From Tequatrovirus BCH953P4: a stretch of 64,000 nucleotides of DNA. This document shows, piece by piece, positions 25,855 through 34,877 of the stretch. Each line of letters starts with the position of its first letter. Position 1 is the first letter of the stretch. Location: the sequence record OZ035789.1; one strand, 5' to 3'. The position numbers were made by a program, and so were the translations under genes. The notes beneath the pieces were generated by a model. The model searched no databases. It was not told the DNA's origin and saw only the letters and a program-made list of their open reading frames with translations.

Positions 25855-25910
25855 GTTCCTCATGTTATGTCAGTAAGATTACTATAACACAACACGAGGG
25901 ACTTGTAAAC
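25855..25910 (-). promoter_or_regulatory. Repeated promoter/hairpin cassette, copy 1
   Basis: coding strand GTTTAC-N17-TATAGT with 13-bp inverted repeat whose 3' arm contains the GAGG Shine-Dalgarno; 50/53 identical to copy at 41657..41712. Confidence 0.55.
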
Positions 25911-27967
25911 TACATTTTGAACTTTTTAGACATTCCGTTGATGTTAACCAAAGAAGCTAAGATTTGAGAAACTTCGTTTTCCTCTTCTTTTGATTCTTCT
26001 ACAAGGAATTGATTAAATCCAGTCATTGGACGAACTTCACCAGTTTCCATCAAATGATCGCCATCATATACTGATTCCTCTAATTGTTCAGAAGGAGGAA
26101 CGATTGTACCTTCGATTAGATACTTGTTATAAGCAGTTTCTTTCATAAAGTACGTACTTACTTTATTAATCTTCAGTAAAATTCCACGCGGTAGAATAAC
26201 TTCAGCTTCTGATGGAAATCCTGTTAAATGACCTGGAACGATAACTTTGATTCGCTCAGCTCCTTTAATTACCATACCCACGCTAGTTTCAGCATTTTCA
26301 TTAGCGTATGTAGAATGACTACCCATATGCATCAAATCTTCTGCATCAACGGAACCTTCTCCTTCACCAGAAAATACTGCGCCGGAATCATCTAGAGCCA
26401 TATAGTTTTTACCATGCTCACCGAAGATATTTGGTTTAAGCGATGTAGATACGAAGTTCTTGAAATAGAACATTTTGTTTTCAATGTTATGACGCAAAGT
26501 TTTAAAGGTAACTTCTTGTCCACGGTAAAGTGTAGTTCCTGGAGGAAGAACTGAACCTTTAGCGAATGCAGAATCCAACGTCTCGATATGCTTAATAGCA
26601 CGTTCCATATATTCTTCGCGGGTAGAATCAGGTTTACCCAAAAGGAATGAGTTCATTTCAACATATGAATCTGCACAATAATCTTCAATTACATCAGATT
26701 CAGCTTGAGTTAATCCTTTTGGAGTTACTTCAGTACTTGCATATTCATATGCCTGGGTAGCAGATTCATTAATCAATTTATAAATGCCATTCATTACAAA
26801 TTGAATAATAGCTGTCTTTTCATCTGGCGTAGCTTTAGAACCTTTAACCAAATCATTGATAATTTTCTTAATAACATCAAAGCTGTTAGAAATATTAATA
26901 TCAGCAAGATCGCTTAAAATTTTATCAGTTTTATAATCAAAGAATTCTTTATTTTTTAAATATTCTTGAGAACCTTGATACGATATATCGCTCTGCAACT
27001 TGATGGATGGATCACGTAAACGTGCATGGGCTAATGCAATATGATTTCGGAAGTTTTCTAGTTCATAATCGTTAGATTTAAAACGAGAAGCACTTCTCAT
27101 ACCACCGATAGCTCCTTTGCTGAAGTTTGAACCAATCTGAATAACGCCAGAGTTCATTGGTCCTTCTGCTTTATATACCGGAACTTTAGATTCAAACTCT
27201 TGATATTTCTTGGCAGCGAAGCTATCACCCTGAAGTGAAGCATCAACAGTAGAATATTGAGCTTGTGCTGCTAATCGACGACTAATTTTAGTTTTCTGAA
27301 TAACAGCTTGATCCGTGCGCTTATCATTTTCTAAAGCAATAGAAGCAGCAACAGCGACAGCTTTAGGAACAGCATTTCCTGTTTTAACGTCTACATAAAC
27401 ATCACCAACCTTTGATTCAACTTTTGTGAATAACTCAGTTGAAATAGGAGGTACACCTGGAATGTCTTCTAAATTGGCATTTTTACGGTAAACCATAATA
27501 TATGCATACTTTTTATCATAGTCCCAGATTTCCTTTAAAAGAACATATCGACCTGCTCCTTTGGTACGTACTAAACGGTCAGCAATAACTTGCATTTGAC
27601 GAGCAGCGCCATTTGTTTTACTCTTTAGTACACGGAATAAGCACGCGTCAATTTTATACTGCTTCATTGTTTGAAGAGCAGTATCAAAAACAGCATTAAT
27701 GACGCCAATTGGATTTCCACCCAAGTTTCTAAGCTTAACCAGTGATAATTTCTCGTTGACACCTATCATTACGATATGCATCATTTTATCGCCCGGCTTA
27801 ACGTTTTTATTTGTATCACCACCGGAGGTGTATGTACAAAATCTAAATCCAGGAAGCACGCTTTCTTCGCCGGCTTGAATAGCAAAAATTTGAGGTATTT
27901 TATGCTTAGGATTTAAGTTAACAACCGGCGCCGAAGCGCCGTCAAATAATTCTGTAATAAGTTCCAT
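25910..27967 (-). CDS. Alt-like ADP-ribosyltransferase paralog (full length)
   Basis: 685 aa; N-terminus MELITELFD...NLNPK.KIPQIF and R-S-ExE motifs (YRGQ, FVSTSL, EAEV) shared with Alt; divergent middle. Confidence 0.8.
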   Translation of the reverse strand: MELITELFDGASAPVVNLNPKHKIPQIFAIQAGEESVLPGFRFCTYTSGGDTNKNVKPGDKMMHIVMIGVNEKLSLVKLRNLGGNPIGVINAVFDTALQTMKQYKIDACLFRVLKSKTNGAARQMQVIADRLVRTKGAGRYVLLKEIWDYDKKYAYIMVYRKNANLEDIPGVPPISTELFTKVESKVGDVYVDVKTGNAVPKAVAVAASIALENDKRTDQAVIQKTKISRRLAAQAQYSTVDASLQGDSFAAKKYQEFESKVPVYKAEGPMNSGVIQIGSNFSKGAIGGMRSASRFKSNDYELENFRNHIALAHARLRDPSIKLQSDISYQGSQEYLKNKEFFDYKTDKILSDLADINISNSFDVIKKIINDLVKGSKATPDEKTAIIQFVMNGIYKLINESATQAYEYASTEVTPKGLTQAESDVIEDYCADSYVEMNSFLLGKPDSTREEYMERAIKHIETLDSAFAKGSVLPPGTTLYRGQEVTFKTLRHNIENKMFYFKNFVSTSLKPNIFGEHGKNYMALDDSGAVFSGEGEGSVDAEDLMHMGSHSTYANENAETSVGMVIKGAERIKVIVPGHLTGFPSEAEVILPRGILLKINKVSTYFMKETAYNKYLIEGTIVPPSEQLEESVYDGDHLMETGEVRPMTGFNQFLVEESKEEENEVSQILASLVNINGMSKKFKM

Positions 27968-27970
27968 GAT

Positions 27971-30019
27971 TTATCCTTGAACGAACTTGTAAGGCATGTT
28001 TGTAATATCTATGCAAGACGCAATAATTCCAAGAGATGATTCTACTTTCTGTTTAACATTTGATGAAACAAATGATGCAAAGTCAACTCTATCTTCTATA
28101 TCACCTGTCATTGTAACCAATTCACCAGTTTCCATTAAATGGTCTCCGTCATAGATTACCGATTCGGTGAGTTCTTCTGTGGTCATAACTTCAGCTTGAA
28201 TAAGCTTGTTGTTAGTTTTAACTGTTCCATCATTGTAAGATGCATCGGTTATTTTATTAACTTTGACCATTAATCCACGTGGCAAAATGACTTCCATTTC
28301 ATTTGAAGGCGCTAAACTTCCACCGGGTAAAACAACATTGACCTTATCAGCCCCAGTAATAACCCATCCAATTCCAACTAAATTATCGCTAGAATTTACT
28401 AGTCCTTCATCAGTTTTATCAATAGAAACACTTAGACGCTTTTCGTCTGGTAAAACACCTATAGATGAATCAGTCATCCAAGTACCAAAAATATTTGGAT
28501 ATAATGATGTTGACACAAAGTTTCTAAAATAAAAAACTCGATTTTTTACCATTGCTTCATATATTGAAGGTAACATTCGTTGTGAACGATACAAAGTAAT
28601 ACCTTTTGGTAATCGTTCACCATTTTTAAAGGCTGAATCTAAATTATCAATGGCTTGTTCTATTTCAGGTGCTGTTAAAATACTTGTACGCTCATCTGGA
28701 TTATATAATCCCAAAAGAGCATTATTCATGTCTACGTATCCTGAACCTACATATTCACGAATTCCGCGTTTTTGCGCTGGTGTGTATTTAGATGAATCTT
28801 TATTTTCGACTATAGGATGTAATGACCATCCAGCGGTAAGAGCATATCCACGTAATTCTCTTCGAATAATCTTTGTTTTTATTGCATTCCAAGAATTTTG
28901 TACTAACTCATTTGCAGCATCTTGGTTTAAATGCGAATGTTTGTTAATATTTCTTTCAAACCAAGCACCTTTATATTTTTCTAAAGTATCATCGACGATA
29001 GAAGCAATAGTTTCTAAAGTTTTTATTGAAGTAATAGATTCTTTTCGTAATTTTTCTAAAGCTTTATTTTTTATTTCTGCATTAATAATGGATTCTTTAT
29101 CTTCAGGAATTATAGAAGCTTCTCTGAATGCCATCCCAGCTGTAATACTGCTAAGAGCATTCTCTAGTGCAAATCCTGAAGTAGAAATTACCGTTAATTC
29201 ATTAGAATCAGAAATTAAAGGCGCGTCCGCTGGTTTATTTAATTCTGCCGCTGAAGCCTCAAATTTTTGAAACATCGGTGTTTCAAATCTAGAAGATTCC
29301 AATGACTGACTTTGTGCAATTGCTCTACGGGAAATTTTAACTTTAACGATTACAGCTTGGTCAGAACGTTTATCATTTTCTTGTGCAATAGATGCTGCAA
29401 TTGCCTCATTTTTAGTTACTTGAGCTCCAGTATCTTTATTGATATAAACATCACCGACCTTCGATTCAACTTTAGTAAAGAGCTCGGTACTAATTTCCGG
29501 AACTCCTGGAATGTCTTCTAGTGATACATTTTTGCGATGTATAAGAATATATGCATACTTTTTATCGTAATCCCAGAGTTCCTTAAGAAGGACGTATCTG
29601 CCACCTGAACGACTACGGATAAGTCTATCAGCAATAACTTGAATTTGTCGAGCTTGACCAGCGGTTTTAGACTTAAGAATACGAAGCATACAAGCATCAA
29701 TTTTATACTGGCGCATTGTTTGCATTGCAACAGTAAAAACTGAATTGATATAATTAATTGGGCTTGGACCAAGACCTTTTAATTTAGCAATTGAACCTTT
29801 AGCAGTTAATGTAAAAGGAACAATATGCATCATTTTATCGCCCATCTTTAAATCGCGATTAGTATCACCTCCAGATGTATAGGTGCATAAACGAAAGCCT
29901 GGTTGTTCAATTGCATCATCAACATGAACTGAAAAAATTTGCGGTATTTTCTTCTTTGGATTTAAGTTTGTAATCGGAAGAGTAGTATCTTCGTCAAATA
30001 ATTCTGTAATAAGTTCCAT
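27971..30019 (-). CDS. alt: Alt ADP-ribosyltransferase
   Basis: 682 aa from second Met; matches T4 Alt as remembered; motifs YRSQ, FVSTSL, EMEV. Confidence 0.9.
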   Translation of the reverse strand: MELITELFDEDTTLPITNLNPKKKIPQIFSVHVDDAIEQPGFRLCTYTSGGDTNRDLKMGDKMMHIVPFTLTAKGSIAKLKGLGPSPINYINSVFTVAMQTMRQYKIDACMLRILKSKTAGQARQIQVIADRLIRSRSGGRYVLLKELWDYDKKYAYILIHRKNVSLEDIPGVPEISTELFTKVESKVGDVYINKDTGAQVTKNEAIAASIAQENDKRSDQAVIVKVKISRRAIAQSQSLESSRFETPMFQKFEASAAELNKPADAPLISDSNELTVISTSGFALENALSSITAGMAFREASIIPEDKESIINAEIKNKALEKLRKESITSIKTLETIASIVDDTLEKYKGAWFERNINKHSHLNQDAANELVQNSWNAIKTKIIRRELRGYALTAGWSLHPIVENKDSSKYTPAQKRGIREYVGSGYVDMNNALLGLYNPDERTSILTAPEIEQAIDNLDSAFKNGERLPKGITLYRSQRMLPSIYEAMVKNRVFYFRNFVSTSLYPNIFGTWMTDSSIGVLPDEKRLSVSIDKTDEGLVNSSDNLVGIGWVITGADKVNVVLPGGSLAPSNEMEVILPRGLMVKVNKITDASYNDGTVKTNNKLIQAEVMTTEELTESVIYDGDHLMETGELVTMTGDIEDRVDFASFVSSNVKQKVESSLGIIASCIDITNMPYKFVQG

Positions 30020-30042
30020 CATAGCCTCTCTAGTGTTTATTC

Positions 30043-30073: not shown

Positions 30074-30260
30074 AATAATCTAGTGGTAAGAGAGTACGAT
30101 ATATTTCAAACTTTGGACCTTTTTCATAAGCATCAAAAGTTTCTGTGAATTTATTATAAGCATATGCATCGATAAATTCAATCATGATTTGTGATACAGA
30201 AGTAGAAACATCTCCACCTTCTTTTTGAGCCACGACAATTGTTTCTAAGTAAGCTTTCAT
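30072..30260 (-). CDS. Hypothetical small protein between gene 30 and alt
   Basis: 62 aa; start overlaps gene 30 stop. Confidence 0.45.
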   Translation of the reverse strand: MKAYLETIVVAQKEGGDVSTSVSQIMIEFIDAYAYNKFTETFDAYEKGPKFEIYRTLLPLDY

Positions 30261-31720
30261 AGACCAGTTACCTCATGAAAATCACCAAATACATCCTCGA
30301 ATGTATTAGCTTTCATTTTATCTTCACGTAAACGAATCGCAATCGGAAGAAATAATTTAACGTAATCAGTACGGCCATCAGATTTTAACCAACCGTTGCA
30401 TTCGCACTCTAGAATTTTTCCAATATAATAATTTTGGTTTTCCATAATGCGAGTACGGTCAAGTTCATGTGATTTTACGCCGGCTTTATCTTTTAAGCCT
30501 GAACCAGCATTTACTTTAATTTTTCCACACTCTGATTCAAGAATAAATCCACCTGCTTTAGTAGGGTCTTTACGGTGAGGATAAATTCCTACAATTTTTA
30601 AATCAACATCAATTACTTCTTTAAATTTATAGAGATTTTTTGAACGAGCATTTTCCCATAATCCATCGATATTTTTGAGAATAATACCTTCAAGACCTTG
30701 GTCAATATACTTTTTATAAATTACCTTAGCTTCATCTAGGTTATTTACTACCTGGTTTTCAATTAAAATTACTTTATCATAACCTGATGTCATTTGTTCT
30801 AGTTTAGAAAAACGTACATCATACTTTAAACGAAATGCAGGAAGATCGTATATTTCTACCAACGGGACATAATCCCAGACCTGAAACTTCATGCATTGAG
30901 CTTCTTTTTCAGAAATGGTTCCCTTTAAAGATTTATTGGCGATGCCATTAGATGCAGTACGTGATTCAGCTACTTCTGTGAAGTCTTTAACTTTGCTGTT
31001 TTCAGGATGAGCATCAAAAAGAAAATCTAGGCCTTCTGGCTCCTTTTTAACTTGCTCATGGTATACCAATTCGCCATCAATTAACACGCCTTCTGGATGA
31101 ATCTGGCGGGCTTCAGCGGTCATTTTGATTAATTCTTCCTTAAGAAGATCTAATCCTAGATATTCATTACCAGCTCGTGATAAAAGACGAACATCATCTA
31201 ATTCATCACCTCTGACTTCGGCAAAGCACCGAGCCCCATCAGCTTTTAACTGGGCAAAGGCTGGAAATTTGATATTCTTATTAATGCCTTTTTCATCATA
31301 AGAACTTGCAAGCATTTGAGGTTGTTCAGGAATTAAACCTGGCCAAACTTTGTTTGCAATAGATACTGAAGCACCACATTCAAGGTCTCGCATCATCACT
31401 CGACGCAAAACTTCAACATCATCTTTTTTACCATCGGTGATATATCCAGTTAATTCCTCAATTGCTGCATTTCCAGTCAATTTCCGAGTAGCTAATGTGA
31501 ATTCAATGAAGTCAAGCATATCGGTAAGAGTCAACATTCCAAAACTCTGGGTAGCAATACCAGGTTTAGGCCATTTCTTGATATAATACTGCAACCCACG
31601 AGAATAAGTCAGACGATATACTCGTTTAAGCAATTCATTATCTTTATTCTTTTCAAGAATTGCTTGCTTCTGCTTAGTTGAACCAATAGATGCTATTTCG
31701 TTCAGAATTTTAAGAATCAT
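30257..31720 (-). CDS. 30: DNA ligase gp30
   Basis: 487 aa; adenylation motif KADGAR. Confidence 0.95.
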   Translation of the reverse strand: MILKILNEIASIGSTKQKQAILEKNKDNELLKRVYRLTYSRGLQYYIKKWPKPGIATQSFGMLTLTDMLDFIEFTLATRKLTGNAAIEELTGYITDGKKDDVEVLRRVMMRDLECGASVSIANKVWPGLIPEQPQMLASSYDEKGINKNIKFPAFAQLKADGARCFAEVRGDELDDVRLLSRAGNEYLGLDLLKEELIKMTAEARQIHPEGVLIDGELVYHEQVKKEPEGLDFLFDAHPENSKVKDFTEVAESRTASNGIANKSLKGTISEKEAQCMKFQVWDYVPLVEIYDLPAFRLKYDVRFSKLEQMTSGYDKVILIENQVVNNLDEAKVIYKKYIDQGLEGIILKNIDGLWENARSKNLYKFKEVIDVDLKIVGIYPHRKDPTKAGGFILESECGKIKVNAGSGLKDKAGVKSHELDRTRIMENQNYYIGKILECECNGWLKSDGRTDYVKLFLPIAIRLREDKMKANTFEDVFGDFHEVTGL

Positions 31721-31986
31721 TATTCATCCTTCAGAGTTTGGTTTACAGCTCTATTATAAATCAATTCATCATTAAGCTCAGTCAAAGACTTATGATATGT
31801 GGTTCTAACTTTATTTCCTTGCATCCAGTGCTTGACGTAAATGAAACCTTGCTCTACACATTTTTTAAAAATTCGTTCGTCTTTTTGAGCTCGGAATTCT
31901 GGATTGCATCTAAAAAATTGATTTACGTGACCGTAATCACGTGTAGTATTACCTTCATTTTCATAAATGGTATGAACAACAAACAT
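31720..31986 (-). CDS. Hypothetical protein (gene 30 downstream cluster)
   Basis: 88 aa, overlaps gene 30 start codon. Confidence 0.65.
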   Translation of the reverse strand: MFVVHTIYENEGNTTRDYGHVNQFFRCNPEFRAQKDERIFKKCVEQGFIYVKHWMQGNKVRTTYHKSLTELNDELIYNRAVNQTLKDE

Positions 31987-32825
31987 TAGAATGCTCCTTG
32001 GAAAATATTATCACCACTAGTAGGTCTATTATACAAATACTCTATGCCACCAGGTTTAATATAGTTCCATGTCTGAAACGGATGTGTCTGATATGGATGA
32101 TATAGATGATTATAAGGATTAAATCCAGGAGTTCTCCAGGTAGTGTTCCAAGGAAAAGAATCGTTTTTGATCATCTTCTCAATTACATCTTTTATAACTT
32201 TTTCACTATCAAAACTTTCTTTATTTTCCTTCGATGGAAAAAGCTTATTCTCTACATCATTCCATGTATAAACTCGCTGTGCAGTTTTTGGAATACTGTC
32301 ACGCTCTCCTCGAGCCATCCAATAAACTGGAACATTTAATATTTCACTCGCATGATCACAGTGGTGAGCGAGATCGTCAATATAACAAATTACGTTATAT
32401 TTCTCTTTTGCCTTTTTGAACAACTCTTCTTTTGAAGAATCATGACCACACATCAGTACTTCTGAGAAGGCACCAGGAAAAAGAGCATTCAAATTAAATT
32501 GACGATTCAGCAGAGCGTCAATAGAATCACCCAGTGCTGTAACAGCTACAAAATTATAATCTTCTTTTAATTTGTTAATTACACACAGGGCATCTTTATA
32601 TGGAGACAAGTAACGAATAAAATCTGAACGATTATATTTTTCAATTAACTTGACACCAAGTTCTTCATCGCAATTAAAGAGCTTACCAGGAGAAATAAAT
32701 TTTTCGTCCTGAATCATTTTTAAAATATGTTCTAATGGAAGATTATATTTTTGGGCAAAATAAGGAAGGCCTGATTGCCAGCTTAAACACACCCCGTCAA
32801 TATCAGTCAAAATAGTAGGCTTCAT
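31986..32825 (-). CDS. HAD-superfamily phosphatase-like protein
   Basis: 279 aa; N-terminal ILTDIDGV resembles HAD motif I (DxDG). Confidence 0.6.
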   Translation of the reverse strand: MKPTILTDIDGVCLSWQSGLPYFAQKYNLPLEHILKMIQDEKFISPGKLFNCDEELGVKLIEKYNRSDFIRYLSPYKDALCVINKLKEDYNFVAVTALGDSIDALLNRQFNLNALFPGAFSEVLMCGHDSSKEELFKKAKEKYNVICYIDDLAHHCDHASEILNVPVYWMARGERDSIPKTAQRVYTWNDVENKLFPSKENKESFDSEKVIKDVIEKMIKNDSFPWNTTWRTPGFNPYNHLYHPYQTHPFQTWNYIKPGGIEYLYNRPTSGDNIFQGAF

Positions 32826-33286
32826 AGAGAGTCTCTTAATAGGTTTAACACATCAATAAATTCAGCTTCGGTTAATATTGTATCATCTTTTGTTAGACCA
32901 CTAGCCATGCTGTGCTTCAAAACTTTTCCTTTTGAGGCTTGTAAGGCATCACGAAACCCCTTGTTTTGAATCGCTGCTTCAAAATATGCATTTGTGTATA
33001 ATTCTTTCCACGCCGGGGAATATCTTGAAAACGGAACTCCAATCCAGAAGAGGGTCCCACGGTCCTGAGCTCTAGCATAAGACCTTCCAGCTTGTTGGGC
33101 GGCAAGCCCGGATAACCCAAATATACGACGTTGTTGTTCAACATTTTTCACCTTACACCCTTGGAGGAATCCTTCAAGACCTCCAAATTGAATACCATCC
33201 ATAACGAAAGGCCATTGGGCGAAATTACTTAATGCACATGATGGCCACCTAAAATTGCTTCTAATCTCTAACTCAGACATTTTCAA
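32822..33286 (-). CDS. NADAR/YbiA-like (DUF1768) domain protein
   Basis: 154 aa; SNFAQWPFVMDGIQF...EGFLQGCK resembles YbiA motif SNF..WP..DG...E..FQ..K. Confidence 0.55.
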   Translation of the reverse strand: MKMSELEIRSNFRWPSCALSNFAQWPFVMDGIQFGGLEGFLQGCKVKNVEQQRRIFGLSGLAAQQAGRSYARAQDRGTLFWIGVPFSRYSPAWKELYTNAYFEAAIQNKGFRDALQASKGKVLKHSMASGLTKDDTILTEAEFIDVLNLLRDSL

Positions 33287-33479
33287 TGCTTATAATTTCA
33301 ACATCAGCCCAATGACCATAGCAAGGAAGACGAAATTCAACTGGCCAGTTAGGGTCCTTTTCTAATATAATAGACTCAACTCGTGGTTCTTCATGTTCAT
33401 CAGTATATGGATTTTTATCTGTTACTTTATATGTGACCTTAATGTACTGAATTCCAAAAATCTTATTAATTATATTCAT
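33273..33479 (-). CDS. Hypothetical protein
   Basis: 68 aa ORF in operon. Confidence 0.55.
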   Translation of the reverse strand: MNIINKIFGIQYIKVTYKVTDKNPYTDEHEEPRVESIILEKDPNWPVEFRLPCYGHWADVEIISIENV

Positions 33480-33673
33480 ACTAATTCCTTTAATCCGTAG
33501 ATAGGAGATAATTCATCACCCATACGAAGGTCTTCATTTCCATCTACCCAGGAAACAATATAAGCCTCTTTTATTTGAATACCACTCCATTTAAATGGAG
33601 GTAGAACCTTAGAAATTAATCCAGGTATACCAACTCCCTTTAATTCAACAGTTTGACCTAAAAAGAATTTCAT
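33476..33673 (-). CDS. Hypothetical protein
   Basis: 65 aa ORF, overlapping stops/starts. Confidence 0.55.
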   Translation of the reverse strand: MKFFLGQTVELKGVGIPGLISKVLPPFKWSGIQIKEAYIVSWVDGNEDLRMGDELSPIYGLKELV

Positions 33674-34434: not shown

Positions 34435-34767
34435 TTATTTTACTACTTTCCAATGCTGCATGTCAAGTTTACCAACTTTTTTCATCTTCTCAATTAAGCG
34501 TTCGGCACGTTGGCGAGCTGTAACATAATACCATTCACCTAATTCATTTTGTTCAATTTTTCCAACGATTACTGTATTCAATTCATAAATCCAACCAGTA
34601 AAGAAATTATGAACTTGAATTGTAAAGGTGAAATCTGTTCCCATACCTTCTGTTGTTTCTACTTCAATAATATCACCTTCAACTGCCATTAAGAACCACA
34701 TAGTTTCATCATATTTACCATTGAAGCATTTAGTTTTAACTGTAGCGTTCAGATTAATCGTTTTCAT
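34435..34767 (-). CDS. Hypothetical protein
   Basis: 110 aa; GGAG RBS; promoter-like GTTTAC-N18-TAGTAT upstream. Confidence 0.6.
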   Translation of the reverse strand: MKTINLNATVKTKCFNGKYDETMWFLMAVEGDIIEVETTEGMGTDFTFTIQVHNFFTGWIYELNTVIVGKIEQNELGEWYYVTARQRAERLIEKMKKVGKLDMQHWKVVK

Positions 34768-34854
34768 TTTATTCTCCTTTGTTTGTGTAAGATAATACTA
34801 TCACAAAGGAACCGTACTGTAAACAACTTTGTGCAATCTTTGGAAAATAAAAAA

Positions 34855-34872
34855 GGACTCCCGAAGGAGTCC
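34855..34872 (-). terminator. Hairpin GGACTCC-CGAA-GGAGTCC with T-run
   Basis: perfect 7-bp stem and tetraloop, followed on minus strand by TTTTTTATTTT. Confidence 0.65.
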
Positions 34873-34877
34873 TTAAC

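What the first reader, a model, noticed from the sequence alone, without database searches (positions are those of the whole stretch)
31986..33286. NADAR/YbiA-like and HAD-like ORFs in the gene 30 early operon, near the Alt pair
The 154-aa ORF 32822..33286 contains SNFAQWPFVMDGIQF...EGFLQGCK, which resembles the DUF1768/NADAR signature of E. coli YbiA; NADAR enzymes act on ADP-ribose linkages, including reversal of DNA guanine ADP-ribosylation. The preceding 279-aa ORF starts with a HAD motif I (ILTDIDGV). A hydrolase module of this kind 3 kb from two ADP-ribosyltransferases suggests a phage-encoded ADP-ribosylation control or counter-defence function (for example against DarT-like toxins).
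Basis: inference. Interest (0 to 1): 0.6.

Follow-up and report, generated by a model that had tools for sequence, protein, structure and literature searches.

The report
Known phage anti-DarT enzyme plus phosphatase
The 152-residue gene is the T4 gene 30.3 (adfN), an enzyme already shown to strip toxic ADP-ribose off phage DNA and defeat the bacterial DarTG1 defence; its neighbour is a conserved phosphatase of unknown substrate that published data show is not needed for that job.

The parts
32822..33280 (-). Gene 30.3 = adfN, 152 aa: NADAR-family DNA (guanine) ADP-ribosylglycohydrolase. Catalytic codons are E36 (33175..33173), K43 (33154..33152) and the phage-type H123 (32914..32912). The C-terminal helix (residues 138-151) is intact.
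   Evidence: 150/152 residues identical to T4 gp30.3. PF08010 E 4.5e-70. AF2 pLDDT 95, pTM 0.90. Foldseek hits only YbiA 2b3w, 8bat and 8bau. Function published for T4.
31986..32825 (-). Gene 30.2, 279 aa: HAD-superfamily phosphatase with a helical C1 cap (residues ~1-195) and a disordered, variable C-terminal tail (~200-279) that carries a GIEYLxNxPT motif. Motif I is D8/D10 (32804..32796), motif II T96 (32540..32538), motif III K132 (32432..32430), motif IV D150/D151 (32378..32373).
32917..33144 (-). Gene 30.3', a 75-aa ORF in the +1 frame inside adfN (DUF2883).
   Evidence: PF11097 E 6.7e-51. Annotated in T4. The ORF is kept only in close relatives.
33273..33479 (-). Gene 30.4, 68 aa, directly upstream of adfN, with its stop overlapping the adfN start. 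No known family.
   Evidence: In the published DarTG1 screen it shows log2FC -1.79, padj 0.014.
31720..31986 (-). Gene 30.1 (DUF3045), downstream of 30.2 with an overlapping stop/start. Context only.
   Evidence: PF11243 E 1e-63.
30257..31720 (-). Gene 30, ATP-dependent DNA ligase. It closes the run of overlapping genes 30.4-30.3-30.2-30.1-30. Context only.
   Evidence: PF01068 E 4.1e-33. T4 synteny.
25910..30022 (-). Two tandem full-length Alt-type ADP-ribosyltransferase genes (685 and 683 aa). Context only; no functional link to 30.3 or 30.2 was found.
   Evidence: PF03496 in both. T4 has one alt plus fragments. alt is neutral on DarTG1.

Best explanation
Gene 30.3 is the orthologue of T4 adfN. 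It encodes a small, core-only NADAR enzyme. When the host toxin DarT1 attaches ADP-ribose to guanine in phage DNA and blocks replication, this enzyme cleaves the N-glycosidic guanine-ADP-ribose bond, releases ADP-ribose and restores a replicable template. It uses E36 and K43, plus a histidine (H123) where other NADARs have Glu or Asp. That step is shown experimentally for the 99%-identical T4 protein and is inferred here by orthology.

Gene 30.2 is translated from the same run of overlapping genes. It is a separate, dispensable, catalytically intact HAD phosphatase. My best guess, which is inference, is that it is a (deoxy)nucleoside-monophosphate phosphatase of the 5'(3')-deoxyribonucleotidase type acting on the infected cell's nucleotide pool. 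The two genes sit together because of conserved T4-type gene order, not because they form a two-enzyme ADP-ribose module. Neither depends on the nearby Alt transferases.
For: Identity to T4: 150/152 residues for 30.3 and 270/279 for 30.2, in the same gene order as T4.

NADAR evidence. PF08010 E 4.5e-70. A 60-sequence family profile finds YbiA at E 0.0016, with the SNFA...E..Q..K motifs aligned. The AF2 model (pLDDT 95) matches only 2b3w YbiA (E 5.4e-5, TM 0.66), 8bat G. lovleyi NADAR and 8bau Phytophthora NADAR with ADP-ribose. N19 and E36 are invariant, and K43 and H123 are present in at least 90% of the 60 homologues. The literature names His as the phage-type catalytic residue.

Function, from papers. 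T4 AdfN removes ADPr from DarT1-modified DNA, and E36A and K43A impair rescue of RB69. It acts on guanosine-ADPr, not thymidine- or cytidine-ADPr. adfN insertions are lost on DarTG1 hosts, log2FC -7.25.

Independence of the two genes. 30.2 shows log2FC -0.12 and alt -0.01 on DarTG1. A 30.2-type HAD lies within 6 kb of the NADAR in 23 of 80 viral loci and within 4 kb in 1 of 80 bacterial loci. AdfN alone is active in vitro.
Against: Nothing was tested on this window's own proteins, so function is transferred from T4. PF08719 (NADAR) does not match this protein directly, and the Foldseek E-values to 8bat and 8bau are weak (0.016, 0.043).

T4 AdfN does not rescue uninfected E. coli or T5/Bas25 fully. 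Something else in T-even infection contributes, and it is unidentified.
Confidence: 0.85

Rival explanations
1. 30.3 and 30.2 form a two-enzyme ADP-ribose-processing module. The NADAR releases ADP-ribose or acts on ADP-ribosylated guanine nucleotides, and the HAD dephosphorylates a product or substrate of that reaction.
For: The ATG of 30.2 overlaps the stop of 30.3. Both genes occur in about 1450-1500 phage records with nearly the same genus distribution. Rare fusion proteins join a 30.3-type NADAR to an NT5C-type HAD: P0135 has NT5C E 1.6e-16 and P0140 has E 1.8e-5. P0135 carries the motif VFVDMDNVLVDFQSGL, against ILTDIDGVCLSWQSGL in gp30.2 (hhalign E 2.3e-4). P0135 also sits in a bacterial cluster with ADP-ribosylglycohydrolase, a second NADAR, RtcB and phosphatases.
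Against: T4 30.2 insertions are neutral on DarTG1 (log2FC -0.12, padj 1) while 30.3 insertions are lost. AdfN alone is active in vitro, and Bas32/Bas60 NADARs work alone in vivo. Adjacency holds in only 23 of 80 viral and 1 of 80 bacterial loci. In Serratia phage CBH8 the two genes are tens of kb apart. NADAR-HAD fusions are 2 to 4 of the 150 best family representatives, alongside LRR, ASCH and lipase fusions. P0140 lacks the DxD motif.
Confidence: 0.08
2. The NADAR controls the phage's own ADP-ribosylation by reversing marks laid down by the neighbouring Alt paralogues (or ModA/ModB).
For: It lies about 2.8 kb from two Alt genes. Alt-30-30.x synteny is shared with T4 and RB69.
Against: The published substrates of T4 NADAR are guanine-ADPr on DNA and RNA. 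It does not remove T-ADPr or C-ADPr. Alt targets proteins such as RNA polymerase alpha. alt is neutral in the condition where adfN is essential. In most NADAR loci no conserved neighbour family was found.
Confidence: 0.03
3. The main role of gp30.3 is to degrade small ADP-ribose-derived immune signals or riboflavin-pathway intermediates, as YbiA does and as comparative genomics predicted for phage NADARs. DNA repair would be secondary.
For: Iyer et al. [quoted passage not shown] YbiA is the best structural match.
Against: There is direct genetic and biochemical evidence for DNA de-ADP-ribosylation and DarTG1 counter-defence. The phage clade is reported closest to DarG1, not YbiA.
Confidence: 0.05
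4. gp30.2 is a nucleic-acid end-healing 3'-phosphatase that works with the adjacent DNA ligase, like the HAD domain of T4 polynucleotide kinase.
Against: It has a roughly 80-residue helical cap between motifs I and II. From general knowledge of HAD enzymes, a cap points to small-molecule substrates, whereas Pnkp-type phosphatases lack one. Capped small-molecule phosphatases score higher.
Confidence: 0.1

Closest known systems
T4 AdfN (gp30.3), anti-DarT factor NADAR (Johannesman et al. 2025, PMC11825919)
   Same: Orthologue: 150/152 residues identical, same length, same gene order, E36/K43/H123 present and the C-terminal helix intact.
   Different: Two conservative substitutions (L80I, I125M). 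This phage carries a second full-length Alt gene nearby, which T4 lacks.
DarG1, the NADAR antitoxin of DarTG1 (G. lovleyi structure 8bat)
   Same: Same fold and same chemistry: removal of guanine-linked ADP-ribose from DNA. Reported as the closest clade to phage NADARs.
   Different: The phage protein lacks the N-terminal extension, has His where DarG1 has Asp, is not encoded next to a DarT, and the T4 version cannot replace DarG1 in uninfected cells.
E. coli YbiA (PF08719 NADAR, structure 2b3w)
   Same: Best structural match (TM 0.66).
   Different: Only 19% identity, and PF08719 does not reach significance on this protein. YbiA has Glu at the third catalytic position, also removes C-ADPr, and has a housekeeping role.
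Cytosolic/mitochondrial 5'(3')-deoxyribonucleotidases (NT5C family, e.g. 2jao, 2i7d, 3bwv)
   Same: gp30.2 shares the capped HAD fold, all four motifs and the DGV..aromatic.SGL segment after motif I.
   Different: Identity is 17-20%. PF06941 does not match. gp30.2 has an extra roughly 80-residue disordered tail. Its activity is untested.
T5 Dmp deoxynucleoside-5'-monophosphatase
   Same: A phage-encoded dNMP phosphatase with HAD-like motifs (IWDLDGTI ... MIDDHKG), which is a precedent for the role I guess for gp30.2.
   Different: No significant sequence relationship (hhalign E 0.038, probability 1.4%) and no Pfam hit.

Membership tests
NADAR superfamily (YbiA fold) | Alpha+beta YbiA fold: five core helices flanked by small beta-hairpins | tested here: met
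   AF2 model with pLDDT 95 and pTM 0.90. The only credible PDB matches are 2b3w YbiA, 8bat and 8bau (probability 0.99-1.00); the next hit has probability 0.04.
NADAR superfamily (YbiA fold) | Conserved catalytic Glu and Lys in the E-x-x-x-Q-x-x-K segment (T4 E36, K43) | tested here: met
   EGFLQGCK is present. E36 is invariant and K43 is present in at least 90% of 60 homologues. The segment aligns to YbiA SEHYFQAQK. The residues were mutated in T4.
NADAR superfamily (YbiA fold) | Significant match to Pfam PF08719 (NADAR) | tested here: not met
   No PF08719 hit at E <= 1 for this protein. Only some longer relatives reach E 5e-6 to 9e-3, below the gathering score. The family has its own model, PF08010.
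Phage NADAR / gp30.3 (AdfN) family, PF08010 | Match to PF08010 above the gathering score | tested here: met
   234 bits against a cut-off of 36, E 4.5e-70, full-length.
Phage NADAR / gp30.3 (AdfN) family, PF08010 | Histidine in the last strand in place of the Glu (YbiA) or Asp (DarG1) catalytic residue | tested here: met
   H123 lies in LKHSM, within predicted strand 120-122 and its end. It is present in at least 90% of 60 homologues.
Phage NADAR / gp30.3 (AdfN) family, PF08010 | Intact C-terminal helix (lost in the inactive RB69 allele) | tested here: met
   Full 152 aa with helix 138-151. RB69 30.3 is 137 aa.
Phage NADAR / gp30.3 (AdfN) family, PF08010 | Guanine-ADP-ribose glycohydrolase activity and protection from DarTG1 | not testable with these tools
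   Shown for the 99%-identical T4 protein in vitro and in vivo. Not measured for this phage.
HAD (haloacid dehalogenase-like) phosphatase superfamily | Four catalytic motifs: DxD, S/T, K, DD | tested here: met
   D8, D10, K132, D150 and D151 are invariant, and T96 is present in at least 90%, of 38 homologues.
HAD (haloacid dehalogenase-like) phosphatase superfamily | Rossmann-like HAD core fold with a cap insertion | tested here: met
HAD (haloacid dehalogenase-like) phosphatase superfamily | Significant match to a Pfam or NCBIfam HAD model (PF00702, PF13419, PF06941) | tested here: not met
   Only HAD_PNKP at E 0.18 in Pfam. Nothing relevant in NCBIfam. PHROG 420 is 'unknown function'.
NT5C 5'(3')-deoxyribonucleotidase family | Sequence membership (PF06941) and dNMP phosphatase activity | tested here: inconclusive
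   No PF06941 hit. The profile hit to cdN 2jao has E 0.055. Structural similarity is high but not distinct from other capped HADs. Activity cannot be tested here.

The most novel reading that the evidence does not exclude
The neighbours of adfN may still matter. Two separate readings remain open.

(i) The HAD phosphatase gp30.2 could cooperate with phage NADARs in a setting other than DarTG1. Examples are clearing ADP-ribosylated guanine mononucleotides or ADP-ribose-derived phosphosugars. The hint is the rare NADAR-NT5C fusion proteins, one of which sits in a bacterial ADP-ribose/RNA-repair gene cluster.

(ii) The 68-residue gp30.4 directly upstream could be the unidentified T-even factor that T4 AdfN needs for full activity. 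The published screen shows a modest but significant DarTG1-specific depletion of 30.4 insertions.
Probability: 0.1. Interest if true: 0.55.

Novelty: already known. Interest (0 to 1): 0.15.

Why it matters
The enzyme matters because it shows a lytic phage carrying an orphan antitoxin-like enzyme that repairs ADP-ribosylated DNA and defeats a toxin-antitoxin defence. That was published in 2024-2025 for T4, and this window adds only another near-identical allele. The practical use here is annotation. Most public T4-like genomes still label these genes 'hypothetical'. They can be named adfN and HAD-family phosphatase. An intact, non-frameshifted adfN predicts resistance to DarTG1. Two questions stay open and testable: the substrate of the widely conserved gp30.2, and the identity of the T-even factor that potentiates AdfN.

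Tried and rejected
- Single-sequence searches did not connect either protein to its superfamily. Pfam gave no NADAR or HAD hit above threshold. NCBIfam gave nothing. phmmer against PDB sequences gave only E about 1.
- The word-indexed homologue search for 30.3 returned only 22 close relatives. The exhaustive profile search was needed to reach 1451 family representatives.
- A local HMM of gp30.2 found no hit in the NADAR fusion proteins at E <= 10. The link to P0135 appeared only with hhalign (E 2.3e-4, probability 45%) and is weak. P0243 gave nothing.
- The hypothesis that gp30.2 is the missing T-even cofactor of AdfN is consistent with RB69 having 30.2. It is rejected because 30.2 insertions are neutral on DarTG1.
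- T5 Dmp as a homologue of gp30.2 is not significant.
- The promoter and terminator scan showed no enrichment over shuffles: 23 against 21.9 promoter-like sites, and 4 against 3.9 terminator-like sites. No transcription-unit claim rests on it.
- I tried to read the 30.2 row of the LB-versus-M9 sheet but fetched the wrong part of the table and did not pursue it. 30.2 is never mentioned in that paper's main text.
- Literature search for 'gp30.2' found no paper.

Full report
**What is in the sequence**

The region lies in a run of minus-strand genes. Their order and products match T4 genes alt, alt.1, 30, 30.1, 30.2, 30.3, 30.4 ... 31, cd. DNA of 31700-33500 is 97-98% identical to many Tequatrovirus genomes. 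With the ATG at 33280, which is the T4 start, it encodes 152 aa, of which 150 are identical to T4 gp30.3. The 279-aa ORF is T4 gene 30.2, with 270/279 identical.

The genes overlap head to tail, as the sequence shows directly:
- The 30.4 stop and 30.3 start overlap as ATGTCTGA.
- The 30.3 stop and 30.2 start overlap as ATGA.
- The 30.2 stop and 30.1 start overlap as TAATG.

Two full-length Alt-type ADP-ribosyltransferase genes lie at 25910..30022, both matching PF03496. T4 has one alt gene plus fragments.

**Gene 30.3 is a NADAR**

The protein belongs to PF08010, 'Phage_30_3' (E 4.5e-70). I tested the link to NADAR in three ways.
- An exhaustive profile search found 1451 family representatives. 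Five of 40 multidomain members also touch PF08719 weakly.
- A 60-sequence profile finds E. coli YbiA in PDB sequences at E 0.0016.
- An AlphaFold model (pLDDT 95, pTM 0.90) matches only three PDB folds. These are YbiA 2b3w (E 5.4e-5, TM 0.66), Geobacter lovleyi NADAR 8bat, and Phytophthora NADAR 8bau bound to ADP-ribose. All other hits have probability <= 0.04.

In 60 homologues E36 is invariant, and K43 and H123 are present in at least 90%.

**The function is already published**

- Schuller-group work lists gp30.3 proteins as the phage NADAR family, marked by a histidine at the third catalytic position. It shows that T4 gp30.3 removes guanosine-ADPr but not thymidine-ADPr in vitro (PMC11125620).
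- Johannesman et al. renamed 30.3 adfN. They showed it is necessary and sufficient for T-even resistance to DarTG1. E36A and K43A impair it. The RB69 allele is a frameshift lacking the last helix. The purified protein removes ADP-ribose from DarT1-modified DNA (PMC11825919).
- A T4 transposon screen found adfN insertions lost on DarTG1 hosts (bioRxiv 10.1101/2025.11.20.689424). In the supplementary table the value is log2FC -7.25, padj 0.
- A 2026 paper adds that T4 NADAR does not remove cytidine-ADPr (PMC12945103).

The window allele has both catalytic residues, the histidine and the full C-terminal helix. By orthology it should be an active AdfN.

**Gene 30.2 is a HAD phosphatase of unknown substrate**

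No curated HMM passes threshold. Even so, D8, D10, G11, K132, D150 and D151 are invariant in 38 homologues down to 34% identity, and T96 is present in at least 90% of them. These are the four HAD motifs.

A helical cap lies between motifs I and II. From general knowledge of HAD enzymes this argues for a small-molecule substrate. My best guess is a (deoxy)nucleotide phosphatase, held at modest confidence. T4 30.2 tolerates insertions at 72 of 72 TA sites on E. coli K-12, so it is dispensable there.

**Are the two genes a module, and are they tied to Alt?**

Evidence for a module:
- The genes are translationally overlapped.
- Both are near-core genes of T4-like phages, found in 1509 and 1451 records with nearly matching genus counts.
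- A few proteins fuse a 30.3-type NADAR to an NT5C-type HAD: P0135 and P0140.
- P0135 lies in a bacterial contig beside an ADP-ribosylglycohydrolase, another NADAR, RtcB and phosphatases.

Evidence against:
- In the T4 screen on DarTG1, 30.2 is neutral (71 sites, log2FC -0.12, p 0.61), as are alt (-0.01) and adfA/61.2 (-0.34).
- AdfN works alone in vitro, and other phage NADARs work alone in vivo.
- Among 80 IMG/VR loci with a 30.3 homologue, only 23 have a 30.2-type HAD within 6 kb. Those I checked have the T4-type layout with ligase downstream, and no other neighbour family is shared.
- Among 80 bacterial or MAG loci only one has such a HAD. That contig is 178 kb and looks like a T4-like phage genome.
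- Fusions to HAD are a small minority among fusions to LRR, ASCH, lipase and tandem NADAR domains.

I conclude that adjacency reflects inherited gene order, and that the Alt pair is context only.

**An open point in the literature**

T4 AdfN does not rescue uninfected E. coli from DarT1 and only partly rescues T5 and Bas25. The authors propose an unknown T-even factor. gp30.2 was a natural candidate, since RB69 has it, but the transposon data argue against it.

In the same table the small upstream gene 30.4 is depleted on DarTG1 (log2FC -1.79, padj 0.014). The transposon carries no terminator. Insertions in 30.1, directly upstream of the essential ligase gene, are tolerated. Simple polarity is therefore not assured. 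This is a lead, not a finding.

**Verdict**

It is, however, the already characterised T4 adfN in a close relative. The HAD neighbour is a genuine but uncharacterised phosphatase that published genetics separates from the DarTG1 function. Novelty: already known. Interest is low, with two modest testable leads.

Noticed in passing
window 33273..33479 (-), gene 30.4: In the published T4 transposon screen, insertions in 30.4 are significantly depleted on DarTG1 hosts (log2FC -1.79, padj 0.014). 30.4 is a 68-aa gene with no known family whose stop overlaps the adfN start. The depletion could be partial polarity on adfN. Alternatively gp30.4 could be the unidentified T-even factor that AdfN needs. 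The 30.4 family lies directly upstream of the NADAR in 13 of 80 viral loci, and RB69 has it.
   Followed up: partly
window 32917..33144 (-), gene 30.3': A 75-aa ORF in the +1 frame lies wholly inside adfN and matches PF11097 DUF2883 (E 6.7e-51). It is annotated in T4 as an internal translation product. The ORF (74-75 aa, or 53 aa from a later start) persists in relatives whose adfN is at least 84% identical and is absent in distant ones.
   Followed up: partly
window 31986..32225 (-), C-terminal tail of gp30.2 (residues ~200-279): The tail is predicted disordered and is highly variable or absent: 42 of 100 homologues are <= 235 aa. Yet 16 of 100 homologues, from 45% to 99% identity, keep a short motif [ST]G-I-E-Y-L-x-x-[QR]-P-T-[AS] about 10-20 residues from the C-terminus. 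It looks like a docking motif for an unknown partner.
   Followed up: partly
window 25910..27967 and 27971..30022 (-): There are two tandem full-length Alt-type ADP-ribosyltransferase genes (685 and 683 aa, both PF03496). T4 has one alt gene plus the fragments alt.-1 and alt.-2 at this position.
   Followed up: partly
L082:1-8851 (Logan ERR9710099 contig): A bacterial contig encodes, on one strand: DUF1810, ADP-ribosylglycohydrolase, a PF08719 NADAR, a 30.3-type fragment, a metallopeptidase-like protein, RtcB, a 30.3-type NADAR fused to an NT5C HAD, a PTP-NADK-like protein and a low-molecular-weight phosphatase. It looks like an ADP-ribose/RNA-repair gene cluster.
   Followed up: no
L135:4001-5551 (Flagellimonas marina contig NZ_JBHSCL010000010.1, 178 kb): This is the only bacterial-assembly locus with adjacent 30.3 and 30.2 homologues (HAD E 3.2e-76). 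The contig size and gene content suggest a T4-like phage genome assembled with the isolate.
   Followed up: no
L136, L141, L148 and L137, L139, L140, L146 (Gastranaerophilales/Melainabacteria MAGs): 30.3-type NADARs in these gut bacteria carry conserved extra regions of about 180-200 residues, C-terminal in one group and N-terminal in another. I did not identify these regions.
   Followed up: no
window 34437..34466 (-) and 34853..34874 (-): The best sigma-70-like site in the region (TTGACA-18-TAAAAT, 11 of 12) lies just upstream of gene 30.7. A strong hairpin followed by a T-run lies upstream of 30.8. Overall site counts do not exceed shuffled controls, so these are only candidates for the operon boundaries.
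   Followed up: no
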